Below are positions 1-10,653 of a DNA stretch of 64,000 nucleotides, in pieces (positions within the stretch are counted from its first letter, which is position 1; every line of letters begins with the position of its first letter). Both the position numbers and the translations under genes were made by a program. The notes below the pieces were generated by a model. The model saw nothing but the letters and a program-made list of their open reading frames with translations. It was not told the DNA's origin and made no database searches. The DNA lies in NCBI RefSeq assembly GCF_055900595.2, contig NZ_CM148325.1, one strand, 5' to 3'.

Positions 1-870
1 TTTACCAGACATACACGTATTTTCATAAACACTTCTACAAGTGTTTTCATTAAGTATTGCTATACACATTGCTTTGTCTGATACACATCCAGTTTAGTAA
101 ATTTGTTAGTCCTGTTTTTACGATAGCTAAAATCAGTTAACGTCACTACAAAACTTTCTGTCCTGTTTAAGCAGTCAATGTGCTATTCGATTTTACTGAT
201 GTTACATTTAACCTTTTCTTAGTTTTTGTGTTTTTAGTCGTTAACCTGAGACAAGTGTCTTTATGTAAAAATGCAAATCCGGCTGAGATAACCTGGCGTG
301 ATTTACTGTGTGCTTACGATGATTTTGTTAAATGGTTTTATGGATGATTTTGTAACGATGAGATTGATGAGATGATTAACTGGTCCTGGTGTTTTTTCTC
401 AGTGCAAGGTGATTATCTTCATCATAAGGCTCTTTTCAGAAAAGCGTGATGATTGGTTCTGGTGTTTTGATTCAGATGAGGTTTACGTTATCGATGGTTA
501 ATCGTTTTTATGGTGCGTAGTGAAAAGTAACGTTTTCAGTATAAGAAAATCGATTCTGATGTTGGTGGTTTTTGTTCTTGGGGTGGGGTGTCTGTAAACA
601 GGTTTTAAACGCGCTATTCGGCTCTGTGATTGAGTTTTGTGGTTAAGCTGTAGGTTTTGGTATTGTTGTTGATTCACAGCAGCAGAAAGCGTTCTGATTG
701 CGTTTTTGGTGTTTTGTTTGCACGTTCTGTTGATCCGTTTCCCTTCGGGCTTTGTAGTTTTTAAAAACCATTTATGCCGTTGTTGTGTGTTTTACCCTGC
801 GTGTAGGTTTATCTTTTCTTCGTGGGGGATTCATTCTGTTTTAATCAGGAGCCATTGGCGTTGCTCAATG

Positions 871-936
871 GCGGGATGCCGTAAAGTTTTACCGCGGTGA
901 TTAATGATGTGAAGTCAATCCAAATCAACGGAGATC
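871..936 (+). repeat. Conserved leader element copy 1 (core gattaatgatgtgaa...tcaacggagatc) immediately upstream of a Rep-like gene
   Basis: Near-identical ~60-bp element recurs at 6625..6686; both end with ...caacggagatc 7-30 nt before a Rep-like start. Confidence 0.6.
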
Positions 937-943
937 TCTCATC

Positions 944-1675
944 ATGAATCAACCAATACACAATGCTTACTGGTTATCCCGTTTTGACAGCCTTCTCGAC
1001 AGTGCCCTGGTGCAGCACCGTGCCGTCTCGTTAATTCGGGTGGATTTACGTTTTCCTGAGTATATGCCTGCCACTATTATGGATACCGATTTAGATTCAG
1101 CAGTGATTTCTCGTTTTTTCGAATCCCTGAAAGCAAAAATTCAGGCTTACCAGCGGAAAAAACGACGTGCCAACAAGCGTGTGCATGCAACCACTCTGCG
1201 TTATTTCTGGTGTCGGGAGTTTGGCAAGGAAAAAGGCAGGAAACATTATCACGTGATATTACTGCTCAACAAAGATACCTGGTGCTCGCCAGGGGATTTC
1301 ACCGTTCCTTCTTCGCTGGCGACGCTGATCAAGCTGGCATGGTGTAGCGCTCTGCATCTTGAGCCCTGGCAGGGTAATGGACTGGTTCATTTTTCCAGGC
1401 GGGCGCCTTTCCGTAAACCGACATCATCTGATGCTCGCCCTTCTTCCGATGATACGCCTTTGTCGGGTGGATGTTCTGATACCCGGAAAGCTTCTGACAA
1501 AAAATCTGGTGGATCCGCTGTGCTCTGGGTCAAGCGTGGTGATGTGGAAGCGATGCAGAAAGCCATGGAGAGAGCCTGTTATCTCGTGAAGTATGAGACG
1601 AAGCAGCATGACGGTTCTGGTCAACGTAATTATGGTTGCAGTCGTGGGCCGGGGCGTTTACTGGATGGCAGGTGA
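944..1675 (+). CDS. Rep-like protein (YfjJ/YagK 'inovirus Gp2'-type), HUH motif
   Basis: 243-aa ORF; motif KHYHVILLL (His-hydrophobic-His) and downstream Tyr/Lys patch YLVKYETK; N-terminus LIRVDLRFPE shared with paralogs at 6028 and 6841. Confidence 0.55.
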   Translation: MNQPIHNAYWLSRFDSLLDSALVQHRAVSLIRVDLRFPEYMPATIMDTDLDSAVISRFFESLKAKIQAYQRKKRRANKRVHATTLRYFWCREFGKEKGRKHYHVILLLNKDTWCSPGDFTVPSSLATLIKLAWCSALHLEPWQGNGLVHFSRRAPFRKPTSSDARPSSDDTPLSGGCSDTRKASDKKSGGSAVLWVKRGDVEAMQKAMERACYLVKYETKQHDGSGQRNYGCSRGPGRLLDGR

Positions 1676-1739
1676 GCCCTGTAAAACGGCATCCGGTGCC
1701 TGAGCATACGTCACGTAATTAACTGTCTTGACCAACAAA

Positions 1740-2425
<686 letters not shown>

Positions 2426-2442
2426 TATTGCCCATTCTTGCT

Positions 2443-2485
<43 letters not shown>

Positions 2486-2858
2486 TGGCTCAGCGTATGC
2501 GCCATTTGCTTACATATGGGCTTAAACCCTAAGGGGCACCAGGCTGCATACGCTTTGCCAAATCTGTTCGCTGCTCATGATAACGAAGAACCAGGATACA
2601 AGGTGGAAGATCCTCAACGCTCAGGGGCGCAATGTTCCCTGTGTTTCATGCCCCCATCGTTTGTTGCTGTGGTGCCAGACTTCTGAGGCACCTCCATGTC
2701 GTTTTGCTTTTGTCAGCATCATAAATGCGTCGGGACTGGTGAATGGATACAAGTCATTTTATTATCGACGTCAGCGAACATACTCACTATGTCGGTATAT
2801 TTCTGAACTGAACAGTAAGTTTTGCGTTGATTACAGTATGCGAAGGAGGTCCATTACA

Positions 2859-4463
2859 ATGAATCCCGATTATGTGCAATCCTTGCAGACATCCCACCAC
2901 TTCCCAGCTGATTTAACCTACAGATTATTTCCTAGTGAGCTTGCGTATCTCATTGACGACTTATATGAAAGTACCCAACTTCCGTTGGAGCTCATTTTTA
3001 ATACTGTACTGGCAACGCTCTCACTCTCCTGTCAGTCATTGGTTGACGTTGTTCATCCTCACACCAACATGCCGGAACCCTGCTCACTTTATCTGTTGGC
3101 AATCGCAGAGCCAGGCGCGGGAAAAACAACGATAAACAGACTGGTGATGAACCCCTGTTACGAATTTGCCGATCGACTCATTCAACAATACGAAGAGAGA
3201 AACAAAGATTATAAGACTGAACTACAGATCTGGAATACCCGGCAGAAAGCGCTTGCTGCCAATTTAAGAAAGGTTGTTAACCGGGGGTATCCGGGGGAAC
3301 AGGAAGAAGAGGCGCTGCGTAATCACGAAAGAAATAAACCGACACGTCCGGTTCGACCGAATTTTATCTATGAAGATGTTTCGCTTAAAGCGCTTGTGGA
3401 AGGGCTCAATGAACATCCTGAGGCAGGGGTTATTTCTGATGAGGCGGTCACTTTTTTCAGAAGCTATCTGAAAAATTATCCGGGCCTGTTGAATAAAGCA
3501 TGGAGTGGGCAACCGTTTGATTTTGGACGGGCTGACGAGAAATACCATATCGCGCCACGTCTGACATTTTCGTTAATGTCTCAGCCGGATGTCTTTACGA
3601 ATTATATAAATAAAAATGACGTACTGGCGTGGGGAAGCGGATTTCTTTCCCGGTTTCTGTTCAGTCAGGTTGTAAGTTCTTCCTGGATACGTGATTATAC
3701 GAGAGGTGAGTTCAGAACAATATCAACCCTGGAGAACTTTCATAAAAAGATTAACGGATTCCTGTTAAACCACAACATTAATTTCCCCGGCATGAGCACC
3801 GAAAGGAAGACATTAAAACTTGCGAAGAAAGCGTTGGGGGAGTGGCAGGAAAACCAGATTAAGATTGAAAGAAAAGCGCTTGCAGGCGGGGAGTGGGAAC
3901 ACATCAGAGATATTGTTCTGAAAGCAGGCTCTAATATACTGAGGATAGCTGGAATATTCACCTGCTATTGCTATAAAGATGCTGAGGAAATTGAATCAAT
4001 TACGCTTTTTAAAGCTATGCATCTCATGGACTGGTATCTGGAGGAGGCGAGCACAATATTTTATCCCATGTCTGCACGATGCCAGTTTGAACAGGATGCC
4101 TGTGAACTGTATGCATGGATTATGACCCGAATAAGGCAGAATAATTGGCGTGCTATCAGGAAAACAGACATTGAAAGATATGGTCCCAATCGACTGAGAA
4201 GAGCAGAAAAACTTACACCTGTACTCAATCAGTTAATCTGTCAGGGGTATTTATGTATCATCAGAATGCGATCGCATCAGGCACTTTATGTTTCTGTTTA
4301 TTGTAACAATGGTTACCTCCTTCCTTTAGGCGCAATGTATTACGAACAGTTTGATATTGTTCTACCCGAGAATATTCATAAAGCGAAAGCATATCACGTT
4401 AATATTCCACCGGAATTAATTCCGTCATTTGCGTCACCTTTTTCAGAGTATAGCTTATTTTGA
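2859..4463 (+). CDS. P-loop NTPase, YfjI-like (DUF3987-type) satellite/prophage replication-associated protein
   Basis: Walker A AIAEPGAGKTT; ATG at 2859 preceded by GAAGGAGG Shine-Dalgarno; the track ORF from 2577 is an unsupported upstream extension. Confidence 0.5.
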   Translation: MNPDYVQSLQTSHHFPADLTYRLFPSELAYLIDDLYESTQLPLELIFNTVLATLSLSCQSLVDVVHPHTNMPEPCSLYLLAIAEPGAGKTTINRLVMNPCYEFADRLIQQYEERNKDYKTELQIWNTRQKALAANLRKVVNRGYPGEQEEEALRNHERNKPTRPVRPNFIYEDVSLKALVEGLNEHPEAGVISDEAVTFFRSYLKNYPGLLNKAWSGQPFDFGRADEKYHIAPRLTFSLMSQPDVFTNYINKNDVLAWGSGFLSRFLFSQVVSSSWIRDYTRGEFRTISTLENFHKKINGFLLNHNINFPGMSTERKTLKLAKKALGEWQENQIKIERKALAGGEWEHIRDIVLKAGSNILRIAGIFTCYCYKDAEEIESITLFKAMHLMDWYLEEASTIFYPMSARCQFEQDACELYAWIMTRIRQNNWRAIRKTDIERYGPNRLRRAEKLTPVLNQLICQGYLCIIRMRSHQALYVSVYCNNGYLLPLGAMYYEQFDIVLPENIHKAKAYHVNIPPELIPSFASPFSEYSLF

Positions 4464-6027
4464 AATAACCTTACACAGATAAAACAAAATCAACCAACCT
4501 TCATTCGGAGGTTGGTGATAAGGCGTTTTGCATATCCTGCACCTATGCAAATGTTCACCAATTATGGGGGGTGAATGAGAATTTCTCTGAAAAAACCGCT
4601 ACGGTAGCAACAGTAGCAGCACATGCACCACATCTGTGATTTAATTTTGTTTTCATAATGACCTGCTGTCAGAGCTGGTTGAATACAGGAGTGTGCGCAC
4701 TGGTGGAAGCATGGCTTTCGTTTTTTTATTGATCGAAAGTGAATCGAAAGATTATTTTTAACATAGATTAAAGCTAATCATTAACCATATTGTGTGAGTT
4801 TTCATATATAACTTCGTTTGATTTTTGTCGTGATGAGTGCAGGTGTATATGATAATGTTGGTCTCTGCCTGAATAACGAATGGTTATCACTGTTACTGAA
4901 AAGAGATGCTGTTCAAGTTTGCATTTCAATAGGAGAGTGAAGAAAAATGATTTGATATTTTTTTCTGTAAGATAATGGTTTGTCATGTTCGTATTCAGAA
5001 CGGATGATTTCTTATTTTTACTCATCAAACATGGATAATTTTAATTTAGGTTTATTACTATAATTAGTATCTACCCCTTTATTTATCATCCATCTCTGCC
5101 CTTCATTTTCCCTCTCTGTCTTTACACATTCCATTACTCTTATTCTCATCCAGTTATATTCACTCCCTTCCTTGTCTAATCTGCATTGTCACCATTATCA
5201 TGGTATCCACCTTCTCCATTCCTCAATCATAACTACTGTAACTCATATGATACTCAGATAAGTTATTCTCTACTACGCTATTGCTGATATCCATCTGTTC
5301 CTGTTTTCAGTAAAATAATAATTTATTTTAATTTTATCTATCATGAGCTGTATTTGCTTAACAATGATTGTTTATCTGATATGTTTTAACCATTCCGGTA
5401 AATATCAATACTTCTGTCATCACTGATTAACTGAATGTTTACTCTTTGATAAGGTGTCCATGATTTCGTCATGTTTAACAGTGCAGGATAAACAATGAAA
5501 TTAACAGAGTGAATTCCTGATTATGTTTTTTTCGGGTTGTATTGTTTAAGATGCAGGGTAAAAATCATGCCAGTGGTATTTTTTACTCTGGTAATGTGTG
5601 CGGTTAACGTTCATGTCCTTAAGAACAGATTGGATGAGGGCGTATAAGTTTATTGTGTTGGCCTTGTATACGTTTTTTTTAGAACCACTGAGAGCAAGTT
5701 TGTAGTTTATGATGTTATTGGTCGTAATATGTTTCTTGAACTTCTGGTCGTGGGTTTTTATCGCGTGTTTTGCAGTATTTTGTGATGTTTATTGATTCTG
5801 TATTTTATTCGCTCCTCGTTTATCTCATCTCTTTAGCTAATACCATCAGATAATCCATTTATTTCTGCACAACGCTACGTGTCGTTAATAACCGACGTAT
5901 CCATTCTGTTACAGCATGCCTGATAAATACCGTCTGTAAGTTATTACCGTTTTAGATCTGATTATGAGCGAAAGCATTAATTCGTTTACAGCACTTAAAA
6001 CGTCATTAACTTTCAGGAGTCATCAGC

Positions 6028-6594
6028 ATGCCTAAATCTTACACACCAAACTGGTTTTTTACCGCTTTACTTGACAATCACATCAATCAAATGATGGCAC
6101 GCTATTCCTGCCTGCGGGCCTTACGCATGGATTTCTTCTACAGGAAAGATACGCCTGATTTCTTACAACCTGATCATCGCTGGCTTGAATTGCAGTTGCG
6201 TATGCTGCTGGAGCAGGTGGAACAATTTGAAAATATCGTTGGCTTCTTCTGGGTGATTGAATGGACGGCTGATCATGGTTTTCATGCGCATGCGGTTTTC
6301 TGGATCGATCGTCAGAGGGTTAAAAAAATATATCCCTTTGCGGAGCGGATTACGGAATGCTGGCGGTCTATTACGCATAACAGTGGTTCGGCACACCGCT
6401 GTACATATCAGCCGCATTATACATACAACATCAACATTCCTGTGCGCCACAACGATCCTGAAAGCATCGATAATATTCGCGGTGCCCTGCATTATCTGGC
6501 GAAAGAAGAACAAAAAGACGGGCTGTGTGCCTACGGCTGCAATGAAGTTCCTGAACGTCCTGCTGCAGGGCGTCCTCGTAAGCCTCACTTCTGA
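6028..6594 (+). CDS. Rep-like protein paralog, HUH motif
   Basis: 188 aa; motif GFHAHAVFWI and Tyr/Lys patch LHYLAKEEQK; N-terminal LRALRMDFFYRKD parallels ORF 944; SD caggag upstream. Confidence 0.5.
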   Translation: MPKSYTPNWFFTALLDNHINQMMARYSCLRALRMDFFYRKDTPDFLQPDHRWLELQLRMLLEQVEQFENIVGFFWVIEWTADHGFHAHAVFWIDRQRVKKIYPFAERITECWRSITHNSGSAHRCTYQPHYTYNINIPVRHNDPESIDNIRGALHYLAKEEQKDGLCAYGCNEVPERPAAGRPRKPHF

Positions 6595-6624
6595 AGCTTA
6601 AGGCCTGAGCCTCCGCTCCTGGAA

Positions 6625-6686
6625 ACACTCCGTCGGTAAAACCTTACCGCCTTGATTAATGATGTGAACTGAAGTCAACGGAGATC
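6625..6686 (+). repeat. Conserved leader element copy 2
   Basis: ggtaaaaccttaccgccttgattaatgatgtgaactgaagtcaacggagatc vs cgtaaagttttaccgcggtgattaatgatgtgaagtcaa...caacggagatc at 871..936. Confidence 0.6.
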
Positions 6687-6840
6687 ATTCACCCTGAACC
6701 TGCATCCGGTGTTCTGTCCCTTATCTTCCCGTTCTGCTTCAGTTCTTCACTTATTCCATCAATCTCATCCGCAAGCCATAACACGTCAGCTCATTCACGG
6801 GCAGGACGCATTGTGGGCTGCGCATAACGGAACATATCTT

Positions 6841-7416
6841 ATGAATGCTATTCCTTATTTCGACTATAGCCTGGCACCCTTCTGGCCATCTTATCAGAAC
6901 AAAGTCATCGGCGTCCTTGAGCGTGCGCTGCGTGAGCAGTCCGGCTCACGGATACGGCGGATCCTGCTTCGTCTGCCGTGGGAACATGACAACGCCTTCA
7001 ACAGCAGACAGACCTGGTTTGGTATGGATTTTATCGAAACCGTCAGTGCGCTGATGAATGCGAAACCCGGACGCGACCTTTGCTGGCTCCTGACCCGTCA
7101 TCCGGAAAAGCCGGAATACCACGTGGTGCTGTGCGTCAGACAGGAGTATTTCGACGGCCCCGAACTGGACCGGCTGATTCTGGATGCCTGGAGCAACGTA
7201 CTGGGCTTCGCGTCACCGGGGGAAGCGGCACCGTACCAGAAACAGATAACCCGGGATGTGGTGCTGGACAGTCGTTCACCGGACTGCGAAGACATCCTCA
7301 AAGATTTGATCTGGGCGTTCAGTGATTTCGCCCGCGATCGTCGTGGTGTGTGCGATCCGGAAGCCCGTTGCCTCGCCGGTAATCCCGGCTATCCCGGATC
7401 TGCAGGACCGTTCTGA
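6841..7416 (+). CDS. Rep-like protein paralog with degenerate HUH motif
   Basis: Internal Met of track ORF 6709..7416; MNAIPYFDYSL...RRILLRLPWEHDN...PEYHVVLCV aligns with the other two paralogs, but the first His of the motif is replaced by Glu. Confidence 0.45.
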   Translation: MNAIPYFDYSLAPFWPSYQNKVIGVLERALREQSGSRIRRILLRLPWEHDNAFNSRQTWFGMDFIETVSALMNAKPGRDLCWLLTRHPEKPEYHVVLCVRQEYFDGPELDRLILDAWSNVLGFASPGEAAPYQKQITRDVVLDSRSPDCEDILKDLIWAFSDFARDRRGVCDPEARCLAGNPGYPGSAGPF

Positions 7417-7484
7417 GAATACGGCTCAGCACCTTTCCCCGCATTCGCACAACCTTCATAAATCTCACAGAGGATATTCTGACC

Positions 7485-7721
7485 ATGTTGACCTCAATGA
7501 CAGGCCACGACTGCGTGTTGCTGCGTGCCGACGATCCCCTGATCGACATGAACTACATCACCAGTTTCACCGGTATGACAGATAAATGGTTTTACAAGCT
7601 GATCAGTGAAGGCCATTTCCCGAAACCCATCAAGCTGGGCCGCAGCAGCCGCTGGTACAAAAGTGAAGTGGAGCAGTGGATGCAGCAGCGAATTGAGGAA
7701 TCACGAGGAGCAGCAGCATGA
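7485..7721 (+). CDS. AlpA-family phage/island transcriptional regulator (HTH); true start may be the internal Met near 7550
   Basis: C-terminal FTGMTDKWFYKLISEGHFPKPIKLGRSSRWYKSEVEQWM matches the AlpA/Vis-type HTH pattern. Confidence 0.6.
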   Translation: MLTSMTGHDCVLLRADDPLIDMNYITSFTGMTDKWFYKLISEGHFPKPIKLGRSSRWYKSEVEQWMQQRIEESRGAAA

Positions 7722-7876
7722 AACGTGTTGCAATGTCGGCGCTGGTATTGCGGAAATCAGCCCTGTCCCTGGTGCTGGCGACATTACCGTTCATCTTCCT
7801 GCTGACCCTCTCCGGTCAGCCAGCAGATTGTAGCTCTTTCCTGACTGATTCGTCATTCCATTCACATTGTTTATAA
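7718..7876 (+). CDS. Small hydrophobic protein (52 aa), start overlaps the AlpA-family stop
   Basis: ATG at 7718 overlaps the TGA of the upstream gene (ATGA); MKRVAMSALVLRKSALSLVLATLPFIFLLTLSG... predicts one TM helix; below the 60-aa track cutoff. Confidence 0.3.
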   Translation: MKRVAMSALVLRKSALSLVLATLPFIFLLTLSGQPADCSSFLTDSSFHSHCL

Positions 7877-7912
7877 CTGGCATTACACCGGTGTTGATGC
7901 GCACCTTCCCGT

Positions 7913-8512
7913 GTGTCTGCACCGGCTGAACAAAATTCAACAGGGTTTGAAAAGGAACATTTCGTGCAAATAACCGAAGCATTAATTTCAGAGCCGGGAG
8001 ACATCCGGCGTTTTATTCAGCAGGCGGTGGACCACTGGCCGCATTTGCTGGCATTTTACTTCACACTCCATTCGGCAGAAGGAAATATCAACGGGCAACA
8101 GATTCATGCATTCTGTACTTCCTTTTACCGACAGGTGCACGAACGTATTACTGAGCGTAATCACACGGCCAGTCCATCATCGCCGGTGGTGTTACGCTGG
8201 TTGCGGGAACAACATGGAGGAGCAACAATTCGATGCCTGTTGCTGCTCAGCCAGACGAGTATTTGTCACCCGCGAGCCAGTGTCACAGTTGATGAACAAT
8301 GTTCGCAAATGGTGGATTTATTGCAACAGACATGGCGGGTGATAAGTGCTGACGGACAATGCCGGGTGGAAAGGTGTTTTCAGGCTGCCCGGGGTGATAC
8401 ATCCGGCCAGTATATTGCGTTAAAAACAGTTGCATTGTCTCTGGGGTTACCGGTTGTGACCGGTATTACCCATCGCCCGGTACAGCGCTGTACATTGATT
8501 ACAGCTCAGTGA
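7913..8512 (+). CDS. Hypothetical protein
   Basis: 199-aa ORF with no recognisable motif. Confidence 0.25.
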   Translation: MSAPAEQNSTGFEKEHFVQITEALISEPGDIRRFIQQAVDHWPHLLAFYFTLHSAEGNINGQQIHAFCTSFYRQVHERITERNHTASPSSPVVLRWLREQHGGATIRCLLLLSQTSICHPRASVTVDEQCSQMVDLLQQTWRVISADGQCRVERCFQAARGDTSGQYIALKTVALSLGLPVVTGITHRPVQRCTLITAQ

Positions 8513-9523
8513 ACAGCGCTGTTGTGCAGTCAACGAGGTTTTCTGTCTTTTCGTCGGTCATTCAGCATCATTAAACGGGTCTCTGCCTCTTTCTGTTCCT
8601 GTGGTGTCACTTCCCCGCACGGCTGACCGTTCAGGTTGTAACGGGCGCCACCTGCTATTAACGCACGGTAATAGCGCGGAGACTGCACATAAGACGCCAC
8701 TGCTGCATGTAATGTACCAGCGCCAAACGCCAGTTCTCGGATGGCGATATCCTGTATCAGGTCGTCAGGTATCCCCACTTTAAGTGGTTTTGTTTTTTTC
8801 CCGGTTGAATGACTCAGGCCAGAGTTCCACAAGACGAATAATGCGCTTACGGTTTTTGCTCTGGCGTTTTGTCATGTCGCCACGGTGTTTTATCAGCAGG
8901 TTTCTGTTTATCGTTCAACTGTGGTATCTGGTCACCGGCCTTCATTTTGTATGCTGTGTCCGTTTTATTCTGCAGCGGCGTTGCCGGTGATTTACTGAAA
9001 ATACCCTGCGGTTTACGGTTAATGGTCAGAGTTACCATCAATTTTGTTACCTCGCGCTGTCAATGGAAGTAGTACCTCATCCGATATCTGAAAATGTTTT
9101 CCGGTGGATGTTACAGCGAATTTCATGTAAGACATGTTGTTGTCGGTATTGTTCAGTACTGTGCGTTGTGAGCGTATTCGTTATCAGACAGAGGGGCAGG
9201 GAACAAACGTCAGAGGTTAAGGATATCCGGGAACAAATGGCGTAAACGGACATCTCAGTGCCTGAGAAACAGTACAGGTCAGGCCATCATGGCCTGCAAA
9301 CAGAGCCCTGGCGACCCCGTGGCCGAAAACGAAACAATAACCCGCGCGCAGTGCGAGGAATCCGGATGTGAAGCAATCAGCAGGTAATATTAATGGCAGG
9401 ACCAGCAGGTTCTTTAAACAAACGAACATGCTGTAATTGATATTTTGCTTATTGTATTTTCTTTTTAGTTATTAAATTAATTTATTTACGAAAAATTTTC
9501 TGCAGATACAGGATGGGAATTCA

Positions 9524-9552
9524 GGGTGTCATCACGCCTTATGATGACACCC
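9524..9552. terminator. Perfect 11-bp inverted repeat hairpin (gggtgtcatca-N7-tgatgacaccc) downstream of the LacI-family gene
   Basis: Read directly; no flanking T-run on either strand, so it may be a protein-binding palindrome rather than a terminator. Confidence 0.3.
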
Positions 9553-9633
9553 TTCCCCTGGTTGTGGAAAACCGAAGGATATATCAGGTTCAGCAACAAA
9601 ATCAGTGAGCTGAAAGATACCAGTCCCCCAGCT

Positions 9634-10653
9634 TCAGCAGCTTTCACGTAAACATAAACAGGGCTCAATGAATATCTGATTGCTCCAGTTACCTTCTTTA
9701 ATTCGTTCCAGCAAAACATTTCCTGCTTCCAGACCAATTTTCCTGTGAGGAACGGCCATTGTTGTTAATGATGGTTGGCAAACTTTGCTGACGTCACTGT
9801 CACCAAATCCTACTACGGCGAGCTCGTCTGGAACTTTGATCCGTCTTCGTTGACATTCATAGAGAACACCGCAGGCTAACTCATCTGACACACATACCAG
9901 GGCATCCAGTTCCGGCCATGCGAGCAAAAATTCCGGTAGTTGTGATGCTCCGGTGGAAAAAACAGGTGGCAGAGCAGCGTTAATAACACGGTTGGGAGAC
10001 ATATGATGGCGTAACATAGCTTTATACCATCCCTGTAAATGCTGCTGAAAGATCCACTGTTCCTGGTTAGCGCATAGCAAACCGATATTCTGATAACCAC
10101 GTTGTACCAGCATATCCGTCAGCTCGAACATTGCTGCAACATTATCAATACCAATGTTGATATCTATCGGATCAGTACGAATGGCACCGATTTCTATAAC
10201 AGGAATCGAGGCATTTTTGAGCAAGTGACGCACGGTACTATTATGCTCAACACTAAGCAAAATTGCTGCAGCGATATTAGAAGCCAGCAGGGTTTCCAGC
10301 AGTTTTTCTTCTTGTTCCAGACGATGGCGTGACTCAGCCAGGATTATTTGATACCCCGCTGGTTGTAGCACATGTTGCAGCCCGGCAAACATTTCCGTGC
10401 ATCCCGCTTCAGCCAGGTTTGGCACGACCATTGCGATCGTGTGTGAAGATGCCGATGCCAGTGCGCTTGCAGTGAGGTTGGGCATATACCCTAATTCATT
10501 AACTGCGGCTTCAATCTTCTCCCTCAATTTATCTGAAACTTGTTCGGGAGTGCGTAACGCTCTGGATACAGTCATTGTGCCAACTCCCGCGAGTTGCGCG
10601 ACATCAGCAATAGTGACTTTACCTGTACTACGACGTTTTCGGGTTATTGCCAT
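9634..10653 (-). CDS. LacI-family transcriptional regulator
   Basis: N-terminal HTH VTIADVAQLAGVGTMTVSRAL plus periplasmic-binding-protein-like sugar-binding fold; divergent from the PTS operon. Confidence 0.85.
   Translation of the reverse strand: MAITRKRRSTGKVTIADVAQLAGVGTMTVSRALRTPEQVSDKLREKIEAAVNELGYMPNLTASALASASSHTIAMVVPNLAEAGCTEMFAGLQHVLQPAGYQIILAESRHRLEQEEKLLETLLASNIAAAILLSVEHNSTVRHLLKNASIPVIEIGAIRTDPIDINIGIDNVAAMFELTDMLVQRGYQNIGLLCANQEQWIFQQHLQGWYKAMLRHHMSPNRVINAALPPVFSTGASQLPEFLLAWPELDALVCVSDELACGVLYECQRRRIKVPDELAVVGFGDSDVSKVCQPSLTTMAVPHRKIGLEAGNVLLERIKEGNWSNQIFIEPCLCLRESC

What the first reader, a model, noticed from the sequence alone, without database searches (positions are those of the whole stretch)
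1..940. G+T-rich ORF-free leader with short direct repeats upstream of the first Rep-like gene
The 940 bp before ORF 944 are C-poor and G+T-rich and carry short direct repeats: gatgattttgt twice (about 320 and 346), tggtcctggtgtttt / tggttctggtgtttt (about 382 and 452), and runs of ggttttt/tgttttg. Their position and repetition are what one expects of iterons or an origin region for the adjacent Rep-like protein, or of a long regulated 5' leader. The composition matches the 5540..6027 leader of the second Rep-like gene.
Basis: seen in the sequence. Interest (0 to 1): 0.45.

Follow-up and report, generated by a model that had tools for sequence, protein, structure and literature searches.

The report
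Non-coding spacer upstream of island Rep-like gene

Summary
Composition and absence of genes are confirmed: window 1-940 has 15% C and 40% T and is the most G+T-rich stretch of the 64 kb. It has no conserved ORF, no Pfam remnant and no Rfam match. The quoted repeats exist, but they are no more frequent than in dinucleotide shuffles.

The region is the right-hand 943 nt of a ~1.75-kb unannotated intergenic region. That region is present in 1877 of 5426 complete E. coli genomes, always upstream of a YagK/YfjJ "inovirus Gp2" gene that carries HUH-type motifs. It is modular:

- **1-~100:** the tail of a tandem array with a 12-13/25-nt period. The array lies mostly beyond the window's 5' edge and varies in copy number.
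- **~100-768:** a spacer that diverges faster than synonymous sites. It is deleted or replaced in natural variants.
- **769-943:** a module linked to the gene. Its near-invariant last ~60 nt fold into a hairpin that sequesters the ribosome-binding site and AUG. This element recurs upstream of a paralog at 6634-6686.

Iterons in the body are not supported. An origin function for the edge array remains possible but untested. Interest is low to moderate.

The parts
1..100 (+). 3' tail of a degenerate tandem array. The units are TACAC[AG]T[AG]TTTT and ACTAAGTGTTTT, with a period of ~12-13 nt and 25 nt. The rest of the array lies ~130 nt beyond the window's 5' edge.
   Evidence: In-window copies lie at 12-29 and 36-53. 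The full array in L001 8875-9100 is seen by TRF (period 12, 5.2 copies; period 25, 2.7 copies) and by the repeat finder. Its length is 120-225 nt in 18 variants, changing by whole-unit gain or loss. It is the AT-richest point of the region at 26-30% GC. Six TTATNCACA-like 9-mers (at most 1 mismatch), all on the + strand, fall within 212 nt of L001; two of them are in the window at 60 and 79.
27..46 (.). Palindrome AAACACTT-CTAC-AAGTGTTT inside the array.
   Evidence: Self-hit 27-46 / 46-27. It is kept in most variants but broken in the L002-L004 type. As RNA, window 1-100 has the second-lowest z (-1.95) of the sliding scan. As DNA, z is -1.1 to -1.7.
101..768 (+). T/G-rich, C-poor non-coding spacer that evolves fast and tolerates indels and replacement.
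   Evidence: Composition over 100-880 is C .14-.17, G .21-.25, T .39-.41 in all haplotypes. Between-haplotype divergence reaches 0.3-0.4 at 250-450. There are many indels that are not multiples of three. A deletion variant lacks 410-685, and a replacement variant substitutes 482-768 with 1155 nt carrying a reverse-strand 176-aa gene. The repeats are at chance level.
451..560 (.). Conserved block within the spacer; function unknown.
   Evidence: Between-haplotype divergence is 0.05-0.15, against 0.20 overall. Majority fraction is 0.93-0.97. There is no significant fold on either strand. The block is absent from the natural deletion variant of the L040 type.
626..675 (.). Second conserved block within the spacer.
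   Evidence: Between-haplotype divergence is 0.08.
769..943 (+). Proximal module that always travels with the Gp2-family gene. It presumably holds the gene's promoter/operator and 5' UTR.
   Evidence: It is the only part retained upstream of the gene in L036/L079, and it is retained in all replacement variants.
879..938 (+). Near-invariant ~55-nt element, copy 1: CCGTAAAGTTTTACCG .. TGATTAATGATGTGAA .. AAATCAACGGAGATC.
   Evidence: 97-100% conserved in 13 E. coli loci found by BLAST. It has 77% identity to 6636-6686. The alignment of copy 1 with five copy-2 sequences is, and the exact 16-mer recurs at 898 and 6653.
6634..6686 (+). Copy 2 of the element, lying ~155 nt upstream of the ATG (6841) of a third, degenerate Gp2-like paralog.
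   Evidence: The same second copy occurs in L001, L002, L003 and L005. The paralogy with the Gp2 gene is weak (BLASTP E 0.014, centred on the HUH region).
896..954 (+). Predicted mRNA hairpin that sequesters the Shine-Dalgarno sequence (GGAG 930-933) and the start codon (944-946) of the Gp2-family gene.
   Evidence: RNA fold of 880-965 gives -19.8 kcal/mol, z -2.5. RNA fold of 860-1000 gives -42.4 kcal/mol, z -3.9, with 0 of 200 shuffles as stable. It is the only 100-nt window with z below -2 among 80 windows across 1-1680. The upper stem is predicted in all 65 distinct homologous sequences. Its pairs are invariant, and the basal pairs vary without compensation, so there is no covariation support.
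944..1675 (+). YagK/YfjJ ('inovirus Gp2') family gene, Rep-like, carrying an HUH-type motif (HYHVI) and a YxxK motif (YLVK).
   Evidence: Translation. It matches Pfam PF11726 and PF23343 above their cut-offs and is annotated 'inovirus Gp2 family protein' in RefSeq homologues.

Best explanation
Window 1-943 is the right-hand part of a ~1.75-kb non-coding, AT-rich control region. This region belongs to the backbone of CP4/P4-like E. coli genomic islands.

It separates two gene modules. A leftward module runs from a GTPase through antirestriction, RadC and CbtA/CbeA genes (its integrase end was seen only in the CP057032.1 record), with variable cargo next to the intergenic region. A rightward module runs from the Gp2-like gene through the YfjI (DUF3987) gene to AlpA.

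The region is not an iteron field. Three parts can be told apart:
1. The first ~100 nt are the end of a copy-number-variable tandem array at the AT-richest spot. This is inferred to be a protein-binding array, either an operator or an origin-type site.
2. About 100-768 is a poorly constrained T/G-rich spacer. It diverges faster than neighbouring synonymous sites and can be deleted or replaced in nature. Its strand bias is a family trait, and its repeats are composition-driven or recent local duplications.
3. 769-943 is the unit that actually serves the gene. It ends in a near-invariant element whose RNA folds into a hairpin pairing the Shine-Dalgarno sequence and AUG. Translation of the Rep-like protein is therefore inferred to be held off by default and released by an unknown trigger.

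Shown here: the anatomy, conservation pattern, chance level of the repeats and thermodynamic stability. Inferred: protein binding, and translational repression and its release.
For: **Distribution and context**
- The region is found in 1877 of 5426 complete E. coli genomes, unannotated, always 5' of the Gp2-family gene.
- The neighbourhood GTPase(-)|cargo|IG|Gp2(+) is conserved.

**Modularity**
- Natural variants carry a deletion of 410-685, a replacement of 482-768, or retain only 769-943.

**Weak constraint on the body**
- Mean pairwise divergence of the intergenic region is 12.5%, against 8.7% at 4-fold sites of the adjacent CDS, with r = 0.18.
- Segments reach 30-40% divergence between haplotypes.

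**Non-coding**
-.

**Repeats at chance level**
-.

**Real array at the window edge**
-.

**Proximal element and hairpin**
-.

**No long structured leader**
- No + strand promoter or terminator consensus in 1-1100.
- No Rfam hit.
- Fold z of about 0 over 100-860.
Against: - Nothing here shows transcription, binding or translation control directly.
- The hairpin has no covariation support. Its upper stem is invariant, partly because the metagenome loci were fetched with an exact pattern covering 903-933, and its basal pairs vary without compensation.
- Its z-score in a 100-nt scan (-2.5) is only marginal once ~80 overlapping windows are considered.
- Copy 2 of the element does not form the same hairpin, so sequence conservation of the element may reflect a protein site rather than RNA structure.
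- Conserved blocks 451-560 and 626-675 remain unexplained.
- The persistent C-poor, T-rich bias across haplotypes is not explained by 'spacer' alone.
- No promoter was located.
Confidence: 0.5

Rival explanations
1. Origin reading. The intergenic region is the cis-acting origin (vegetative or transfer) for the adjacent HUH-type Gp2-like initiator and the DUF3987 helicase-like protein. The tandem array at the window edge acts as iterons or DnaA boxes beside an AT-rich unwinding region, and the G+T-rich strand is the displaced single strand.
For: - The gene is Rep-like, with HUH and YxxK motifs.
- A real array sits at the AT-richest point, 26-30% GC.
- Six same-strand 9-mers within 1 mismatch of TTATNCACA fall in 212 nt, where about 0.2 would be expected from the locus-wide rate.
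- A 62-kb circular record without any typed replicon is built from island modules and an integrase.
- From established knowledge: the Ff phage intergenic region with the (+) origin lies directly upstream of gene II.
Against: - The array period (12-13/25 nt) and its degeneracy are not typical of iterons.
- Because the motif is part of the repeat unit, its clustering is automatic. A chance DnaA-box resemblance of one unit has a probability of about 0.02-0.05 (own estimate).
- No significantly stable DNA hairpin is found: z is -0.9 to -1.7.
- The array motifs do not recur elsewhere in the window.
- There is no similarity to phage DNA, and plasmid matches are confined to four E. coli records: a 62-kb circle of island modules with no typed replicon (CP057032.1), an island module inserted in an IncI plasmid (pNDM5_LS003), and two not followed up in detail (CP088396.1, IncFIA/FIC; NZ_CP010123.1).
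- 15 of 109 Gp2 genes are disrupted, and the CDS shows weak constraint.
- The circular record may be an assembly artefact.
Confidence: 0.17
2. Long-leader reading. The whole stretch is transcribed as a ~1-kb 5' UTR from a promoter at the left edge of the array (TTGAGA-17-TATACA, L001 ~8853-8881). Its C-poor, G/U-rich make-up keeps the untranslated RNA free of Rho-loading sites, while the C-rich antisense RNA is terminated.
For: - The strand bias is strong and shared by all haplotypes, with T>A and G>C on the gene's sense strand.
- A fully conserved -35/-10-like stretch lies just left of the array.
- No intrinsic terminator is found on the + strand.
- Stop codons in two frames (TGA 898-900, TAA 902-904) sit at the foot of the hairpin. 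An open frame ends there in 51 of 60 sequences, which would allow translational coupling.
Against: - Frequent natural variants interrupt the 'leader' with a reverse-strand gene or unrelated DNA yet keep an intact Gp2 gene.
- The candidate promoter lacks the -7 T and was not called by the scan.
- The open frame changes register between haplotypes, and its length is expected by chance in A-poor DNA (own estimate: about one such ORF per strand).
- There is no structure signal.
- In the 250-450 segment the diverged haplotype has no G>C skew.
Confidence: 0.15
3. Inert-DNA reading. The body of the region is functionally inert decaying DNA, such as a remnant of lost cargo or an old expansion of GT-rich motifs. 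It is retained only because it lies between two selected modules.
For: - It diverges faster than synonymous sites.
- It is tolerated as a deletion or replacement.
- A (GGTGAT)n microsatellite and local duplications are present.
- No ORF, RNA family or structure is found.
Against: - Blocks at 451-560 and 626-675 stay 85-95% identical between haplotypes that differ by 30-40% beside them.
- No protein remnant is detectable in six frames.
- Full-length colinear conservation is seen in more than 1300 genomes.
Confidence: 0.15

Closest known systems
Intergenic (IG) region upstream of gene II in Ff filamentous phages (M13/f1/fd)
   Same: Both are long non-coding regions directly 5' of a gene for an HUH-type G2P-family initiator. 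The window's protein matches Pfam REP_ORF2-G2P and YagK_YfjJ_C.
   Different: No sequence similarity to any phage record was found. No significantly stable hairpins were found. The element here is a chromosomal island with an integrase, not a phage, and no nick site is identifiable. The comparison rests on gene order recalled from established knowledge, not on a test.
Iteron-type plasmid origins (pSC101, P1, F, RK2) with DnaA boxes and an AT-rich region
   Same: A repeat array sits at the AT-richest point next to a replication-protein gene, and it contains TTATACACA-like 9-mers.
   Different: The period is 12-13/25 nt with degenerate units, rather than regular 17-22-bp iterons. Copy number varies between close relatives. 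No replication evidence exists.
Structure-repressed translation initiation regions of plasmid rep genes (e.g. repZ of IncI1/ColIb-P9, repA of IncFII)
   Same: A stable hairpin pairs the Shine-Dalgarno sequence and AUG of a Rep-like gene, stop codons of upstream frames lie at its foot, and a ProQ/FinO-family gene lies nearby in the island.
   Different: No antisense RNA promoter is conserved: the only - strand promoter-like site, at 439-412, is lost in the diverged haplotype. No conserved leader peptide is present, and no covariation is available.
CP4-57 cryptic prophage of E. coli K-12 (intA-alpA-yfjI-yfjJ)
   Same: The same gene families are present: AlpA, DUF3987/YfjI and YagK/YfjJ.
   Different: K-12 CP4-57 has neither this intergenic region nor the 55-nt element. 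There yfjJ follows yfjI after 152 nt, and the gene order and orientation differ.

Membership tests
Iteron-containing replication origin | Three or more well-conserved direct repeats (typically 17-22 bp) at regular spacing, more than chance would give | tested here: not met
   For window 100-940 the longest exact repeat is 11 nt (matched in 35 of 100 shuffles), a 15-mer pair with at most 1 mismatch occurs in 7-9 of 100 shuffles, and TRF finds nothing. The pairs are not conserved in diverged islands.
Iteron-containing replication origin | The same feature, applied to the array at window 1-100 plus ~130 nt upstream | tested here: inconclusive
   A real tandem array is present (TRF scores 53-65, period 12 and 25). 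Its units are degenerate (64-70% matches), and unit number varies between relatives.
Iteron-containing replication origin | Adjacent AT-rich unwinding region and DnaA boxes | tested here: inconclusive
   GC falls to 26-30% at the array. Six TTATNCACA-like sites (at most 1 mismatch) lie on one strand within 212 nt, but they are part of the repeat unit, so they are not independent.
Iteron-containing replication origin | Binding by the cognate initiator and replication when the initiator is supplied in trans | not testable with these tools
   Needs EMSA or footprinting and a replication assay.
HUH-initiator (+) origin / oriT | Conserved hairpin presenting a nick site near the initiator gene | tested here: inconclusive
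   The only conserved hairpin, at 896-954, is not significantly stable as DNA (z -1.5 and -1.1). The array palindrome at 27-46 gives z -1.1 to -1.7. No nick motif could be assigned.
Long structured or regulated 5' leader (riboswitch, attenuator, antitermination leader) | Promoter far upstream, conserved RNA structure or terminator within the leader, and continuity with the gene | tested here: not met
   There is no + strand promoter or terminator consensus and no Rfam match at E up to 1. Fold z is about 0 for 100-860. Continuity is broken in common natural variants.
Structure-repressed translation initiation region | Stable local RNA structure pairing the Shine-Dalgarno sequence and start codon | tested here: met
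   Window 860-1000 folds at -42.4 kcal/mol, z -3.9, with 0 of 200 shuffles as stable. GGA 930-932 pairs with UCC 919-921, and A944/U945 pair with U905/A904. It is the lowest z of 80 windows.
Structure-repressed translation initiation region | Compensatory base changes that keep the pairing | tested here: inconclusive
   The upper-stem pairs are invariant in 65 distinct sequences, and the basal pairs change without compensation. Positions 903-933 were fixed by the search pattern.
YagK/YfjJ ('inovirus Gp2') HUH-type protein family (the adjacent gene) | Match to the family profile above the curated cut-off, plus HUH and Tyr motifs | tested here: met
   PF11726 scores 127.7 bits (cut-off 25.8) and PF23343 scores 35.2 bits (cut-off 27.8). 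HYHVI and YLVK are visible in the translation. No solved structure was found by sequence.

The most novel reading that the evidence does not exclude
The ~1.75-kb intergenic region is the cis-acting origin (oriV or oriT) of a very common family of E. coli pathogenicity and fitness islands. Its parts would be the tandem array with DnaA-box-like units, an AT-rich core and the strand-biased G+T-rich flank. After AlpA-triggered excision, these islands would replicate or transfer as episomes using their own HUH Gp2-like initiator and DUF3987 helicase. The 62-kb replicon-less circular record CP057032.1 would be such an episome.
Probability: 0.12. Interest if true: 0.6.

Novelty: new member of a known kind. 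Interest (0 to 1): 0.25.

Why it matters
If the plain reading holds, this is a clean negative. Short repeats in strongly skewed DNA should not be read as iterons without a composition-matched control.

The useful residue has two parts:
- A map of an uncharacterised, widespread non-coding backbone region of E. coli islands, present in about a third of complete genomes.
- A concrete, testable candidate for translational control of the islands' Rep-like gene.

If the minority reading holds and the edge array is an origin, it would bear on how 'cryptic' CP4-like islands that carry virulence cargo persist or move after excision. That question is still open.

Tried and rejected
- **Known RNA families:** Rfam E-value scans of window 1-10000 and L001 8000-10100 gave only sub-threshold eukaryotic or viral noise.
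- **Structured RNA over the whole leader:** z is +0.6 on the + strand, -0.6 on the - strand and -0.25 for 440-700.
- **Single-stranded DNA hairpins at the array, the 450-565 block and the proximal element:** z is -0.85 to -1.7.
- **Hidden or decayed gene:** there is no conserved ORF, six-frame Pfam gave only a 0.043 Astacin noise hit, and tblastn with neighbouring and variant-cassette proteins found nothing.
- **Sequence relation between the two 'leaders':** none was found; the only match is 881-936 to 6636-6686.
- **Recurrence of array motifs near yfjI or the second Rep-like gene (a P4 ori/crr-style arrangement):** none, and there is no array in 4464-6027.
- **Phage relatives:** none. The plasmid search returned four E. 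coli records; those examined in detail are island modules.
- **Other species:** a peptide scan of 100,044 species genomes returned only two MAG contigs.
- **K-12 CP4-57:** it has no homologue of the region.
- **Cassette boundaries of the 482-768 replacement:** no terminal inverted repeats were found.
- **F-plasmid nic-like GTGGGGTGT at ~583:** noted from memory and rejected, because that stretch is variable even in the closest relatives.
- **Literature:** no paper treats this intergenic region. One preprint (10.1101/2024.08.29.610337) lists Gp2-like, AlpA and RadC genes as likely core functions of a class of islands.
- **Functions of the cargo proteins next to the region:** no Pfam or PADLOC hits.
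Full report
**What is at the coordinates**

Window 1-943 precedes an ORF at 944-1675. Its product matches Pfam YagK_YfjJ_C (E 6e-37) and REP_ORF2-G2P (E 2e-8), both above the curated cut-offs. It carries an HUH-type motif (HYHVI) and a YxxK motif (YLVK) in the translation. 'Rep-like' is therefore a fair description.

The stretch is C-poor and T/G-rich: A .227, C .150, G .227, T .397. It holds the eleven most G+T-rich 600-nt windows of the 64 kb, peaking at 0.675 against a mean of 0.507 with sd 0.035.

No ORF exceeds 64 aa. No reading frame is conserved across 60 homologues, apart from an open frame ending at 898-900 whose register changes between haplotypes and whose length is expected in A-poor DNA. 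Six-frame Pfam and tblastn with neighbouring proteins find no gene remnant.

**The quoted repeats**

All of them exist at the stated places: GATGATTTTGT at 318 and 343, and TGGTCCTGGTGTTTT / TGGTTCTGGTGTTTT at 381 and 454.

Against 100 dinucleotide-preserving shuffles they are unremarkable:
- An exact direct repeat of 11 nt or more appears in 35 of 100 shuffles of 1-940.
- A 15-mer pair with at most 1 mismatch appears in 9 of 100 shuffles (3 of 100 if only 300-940 is shuffled).
- Counts of repeated 9- to 11-mers lie within the shuffle range.

GTTTT-type runs (z 4.3) do not exceed the best k-mer z of shuffled controls. Only GATGATT and GATGA, clustered at 318-480, do. TRF reports no tandem repeat in 1-1000.

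**Homologous islands**

The region is not unique. It is found, unannotated, in 1877 of 5426 complete E. coli genomes. In 1346-1348 of them it is colinear over at least 80% of its length, at 75-96% identity.

In every locus inspected it is the right-hand part of a ~1.5-1.75-kb intergenic region. That region lies between a leftward module and the rightward Gp2-family gene:
- The leftward module runs from a GTPase through DUF932, antirestriction, RadC and CbtA/CbeA genes. Its integrase end was seen only in the CP057032.1 record. One or two unassignable cargo genes lie next to the intergenic region (no Pfam or PADLOC hits).
- The Gp2-family gene is followed in the window by an IS110 remnant, a DUF3987/YfjI gene, two further Gp2-like paralogs and alpA.

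A pattern scan of metagenome contigs added 117 loci. One caveat applies to them: positions 903-933 are fixed by that pattern.

GATGATTTTGT x2 becomes GACGATTCTGT / GGATGTTTTGA, and TGGTCCTGGTG becomes GATTCCTGACG.

**Constraint**

Mean pairwise divergence of the 943 nt is 12.5%. Divergence at 4-fold sites of the adjacent CDS is 8.7%, and 6.8% at all CDS sites. The two are barely correlated (r 0.18), which indicates mosaic recombination.

Between the two main haplotypes, divergence varies sharply along the region:

| Segment | Divergence |
|---|---|
| 250-450 | 0.2-0.41 |
| 826-875 | 0.32-0.43 |
| 451-550 | 0.05-0.15 |
| 626-675 | 0.08 |
| 901-943 | 0-0.01 |

Indels that are not multiples of three are common.

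Natural variants show the region is modular:
- One type deletes 410-685.
- A frequent type replaces 482-768 with 1155 nt carrying a reverse-strand 176-aa gene.
- Two loci keep only 769-943.

The T-rich, C-poor bias over 100-880 is shared by all haplotypes. The G>C skew at 250-450 is not.

The sequence just left of the window start, read in the 96%-identical locus L001, shows a tandem array (L001 8875-9100) whose last units occupy window 1-~100.
- TRF gives period 12 (5.2 copies) and period 25 (2.7 copies). The repeat finder gives families built on ATACAC[AG]T[AG]TTTT and ACTAAGTGTTTT (in-window copies).
- Among 18 variants the array measures 120-225 nt, changing by gain or loss of whole units.
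- It is the AT-richest spot of the region, at 26-30% GC.
- It contains six + strand 9-mers within one mismatch of TTATNCACA in 212 nt. The locus-wide rate predicts about 0.2. Two of them lie in the window.

Because the 9-mer is part of the repeat unit, this clustering is not independent evidence. The resemblance to DnaA boxes is a lead, not a test.

The motifs do not recur elsewhere in the window.

**The proximal element**

Window 879-938 is near-invariant in the BLAST-ascertained loci. It recurs at 77% identity at 6634-6686, upstream of the third, degenerate Gp2-like paralog, in the window and in four other loci.

As RNA, the stability results are:
- 880-965 folds to -19.8 kcal/mol, z -2.5.
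- 860-1000 folds to -42.4 kcal/mol, z -3.9, with 0 of 200 shuffles as stable.

The hairpin at 896-954 pairs GGA of the Shine-Dalgarno sequence (930-932) with UCC 919-921. It also pairs A944/U945 of the start codon with U905/A904.

In a scan of 80 overlapping 100-nt windows over 1-1680, this is the only one with z below -2. The body of the leader sits near z 0.

The upper stem is predicted in all 65 distinct homologues. Its pairs are invariant, however, and the basal pairs vary without compensation, so covariation is unavailable.

Copy 2 does not form the same hairpin. It lies ~155 nt from its gene's ATG, so the shared sequence may be a protein site.

As DNA the hairpin is not significant.

**What was not found**

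- No sigma-70-like promoter or intrinsic terminator on the + strand of 1-1100.
- No Rfam family.
- No phage similarity.
- No similarity between 1-943 and the 5540-6027 'leader', which is T-rich and C-poor but not G-rich and has no array.
- No homologue in K-12 CP4-57.
- No literature on this region.

**Interpretation**

The best-supported reading (confidence 0.5) is a modular, non-coding control region:
1. An edge array, probably bound by protein.
2. A weakly constrained, strand-biased spacer whose short repeats are composition-driven.
3. A gene-linked proximal module whose RNA hides the ribosome-binding site and start codon.

The origin reading survives only for the edge array (0.17). It gains a little from a 62-kb circular record with no typed replicon that is made of island modules plus an integrase. 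That record may be an artefact. In addition, 15 of 109 Gp2 genes are disrupted.

A continuous long leader (0.15) is hard to reconcile with the interrupted natural variants. Pure junk (0.15) does not explain the conserved blocks.

**Verdict**

- A regulated leader is supported only for the last ~60-175 nt.
- This is an uncharacterised member of a familiar kind, the non-coding control region of an integrative island, and is of low to moderate interest.

Noticed in passing
L001 8560-8770 (about 230-440 nt beyond the window's 5' edge): A ~200-nt block stays 93-98% identical even against the most diverged locus. RefSeq annotates a 44-aa ORF in it (WP_000268384.1). L006 carries 1-nt and 11-nt indels inside that ORF, so it may be an RNA or a binding site rather than a protein. 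The peptide has no Pfam hit.
   Followed up: partly
L001 8344-8385: An 11-nt tandem repeat GAACTATTCTC (3.8 copies) sits at the far left of the intergenic region. It overlaps a promoter-like site, TTCACG-18-CATAAT. AACTATTC copies are also present in L004/L005.
   Followed up: no
window ~572 (insertion point); L006, L003 and other loci: A (GGTGAT)n microsatellite is polymorphic here, with 2-8 copies in 10 of 83 distinct upstream sequences and none in the window.
   Followed up: partly
window 5011-5230: This is the most pyrimidine-rich 220 nt of the whole 64 kb, at 71% C+T and 5.9% G, with GC skew about -0.44. It lies inside the 1.56-kb ORF-poor gap between the yfjI-like gene and the second Gp2-like gene.
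   Followed up: no
window 6634-6686: A second copy of the ~55-nt proximal element sits upstream of a third, degenerate Gp2-like gene. That gene's homologous N-terminus starts at ATG 6841. The ORF is nevertheless open from 6673, with an in-frame CTG at the position equivalent to the first gene's ATG.
   Followed up: partly
L132/L133 (CP057032.1, whole record): The 62,375-bp circular 'plasmid' pRHB40-C01_2 has no typed replicon or relaxase. It consists of island modules: an integrase, GTPase through CbtA/CbeA, three Gp2-type genes, two alpA genes and F4-like fimbriae. It may be an excised island episome or an assembly artefact.
   Followed up: partly
L134 (NZ_OP290546.1 147-17896): The same block (cargo genes, intergenic region, Gp2, YfjI, Gp2-like, AlpA) is inserted next to repA in an IncI-gamma/K1 conjugative NDM-5 plasmid. 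It is 99.9% identical to the chromosomal locus L001.
   Followed up: no
window 944-1675 and homologues: 15 of 109 homologous Gp2-family coding sequences are interrupted. Divergence at all sites (6.8%) is close to that at 4-fold sites (8.7%), which suggests weak purifying selection on this gene.
   Followed up: partly
window 1769-2425 (- strand): An IS110-family transposase remnant lies between the first Gp2-like gene and the yfjI-like gene. It is annotated as a frameshifted partial gene in the homologous locus.
   Followed up: no
window ~8530-9130 (- strand); L001 17624-18132: A frameshifted ProQ/FinO-family gene lies just downstream of alpA in the island backbone. This is of interest because a Rep-like gene nearby has a structured translation start.
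   Followed up: no
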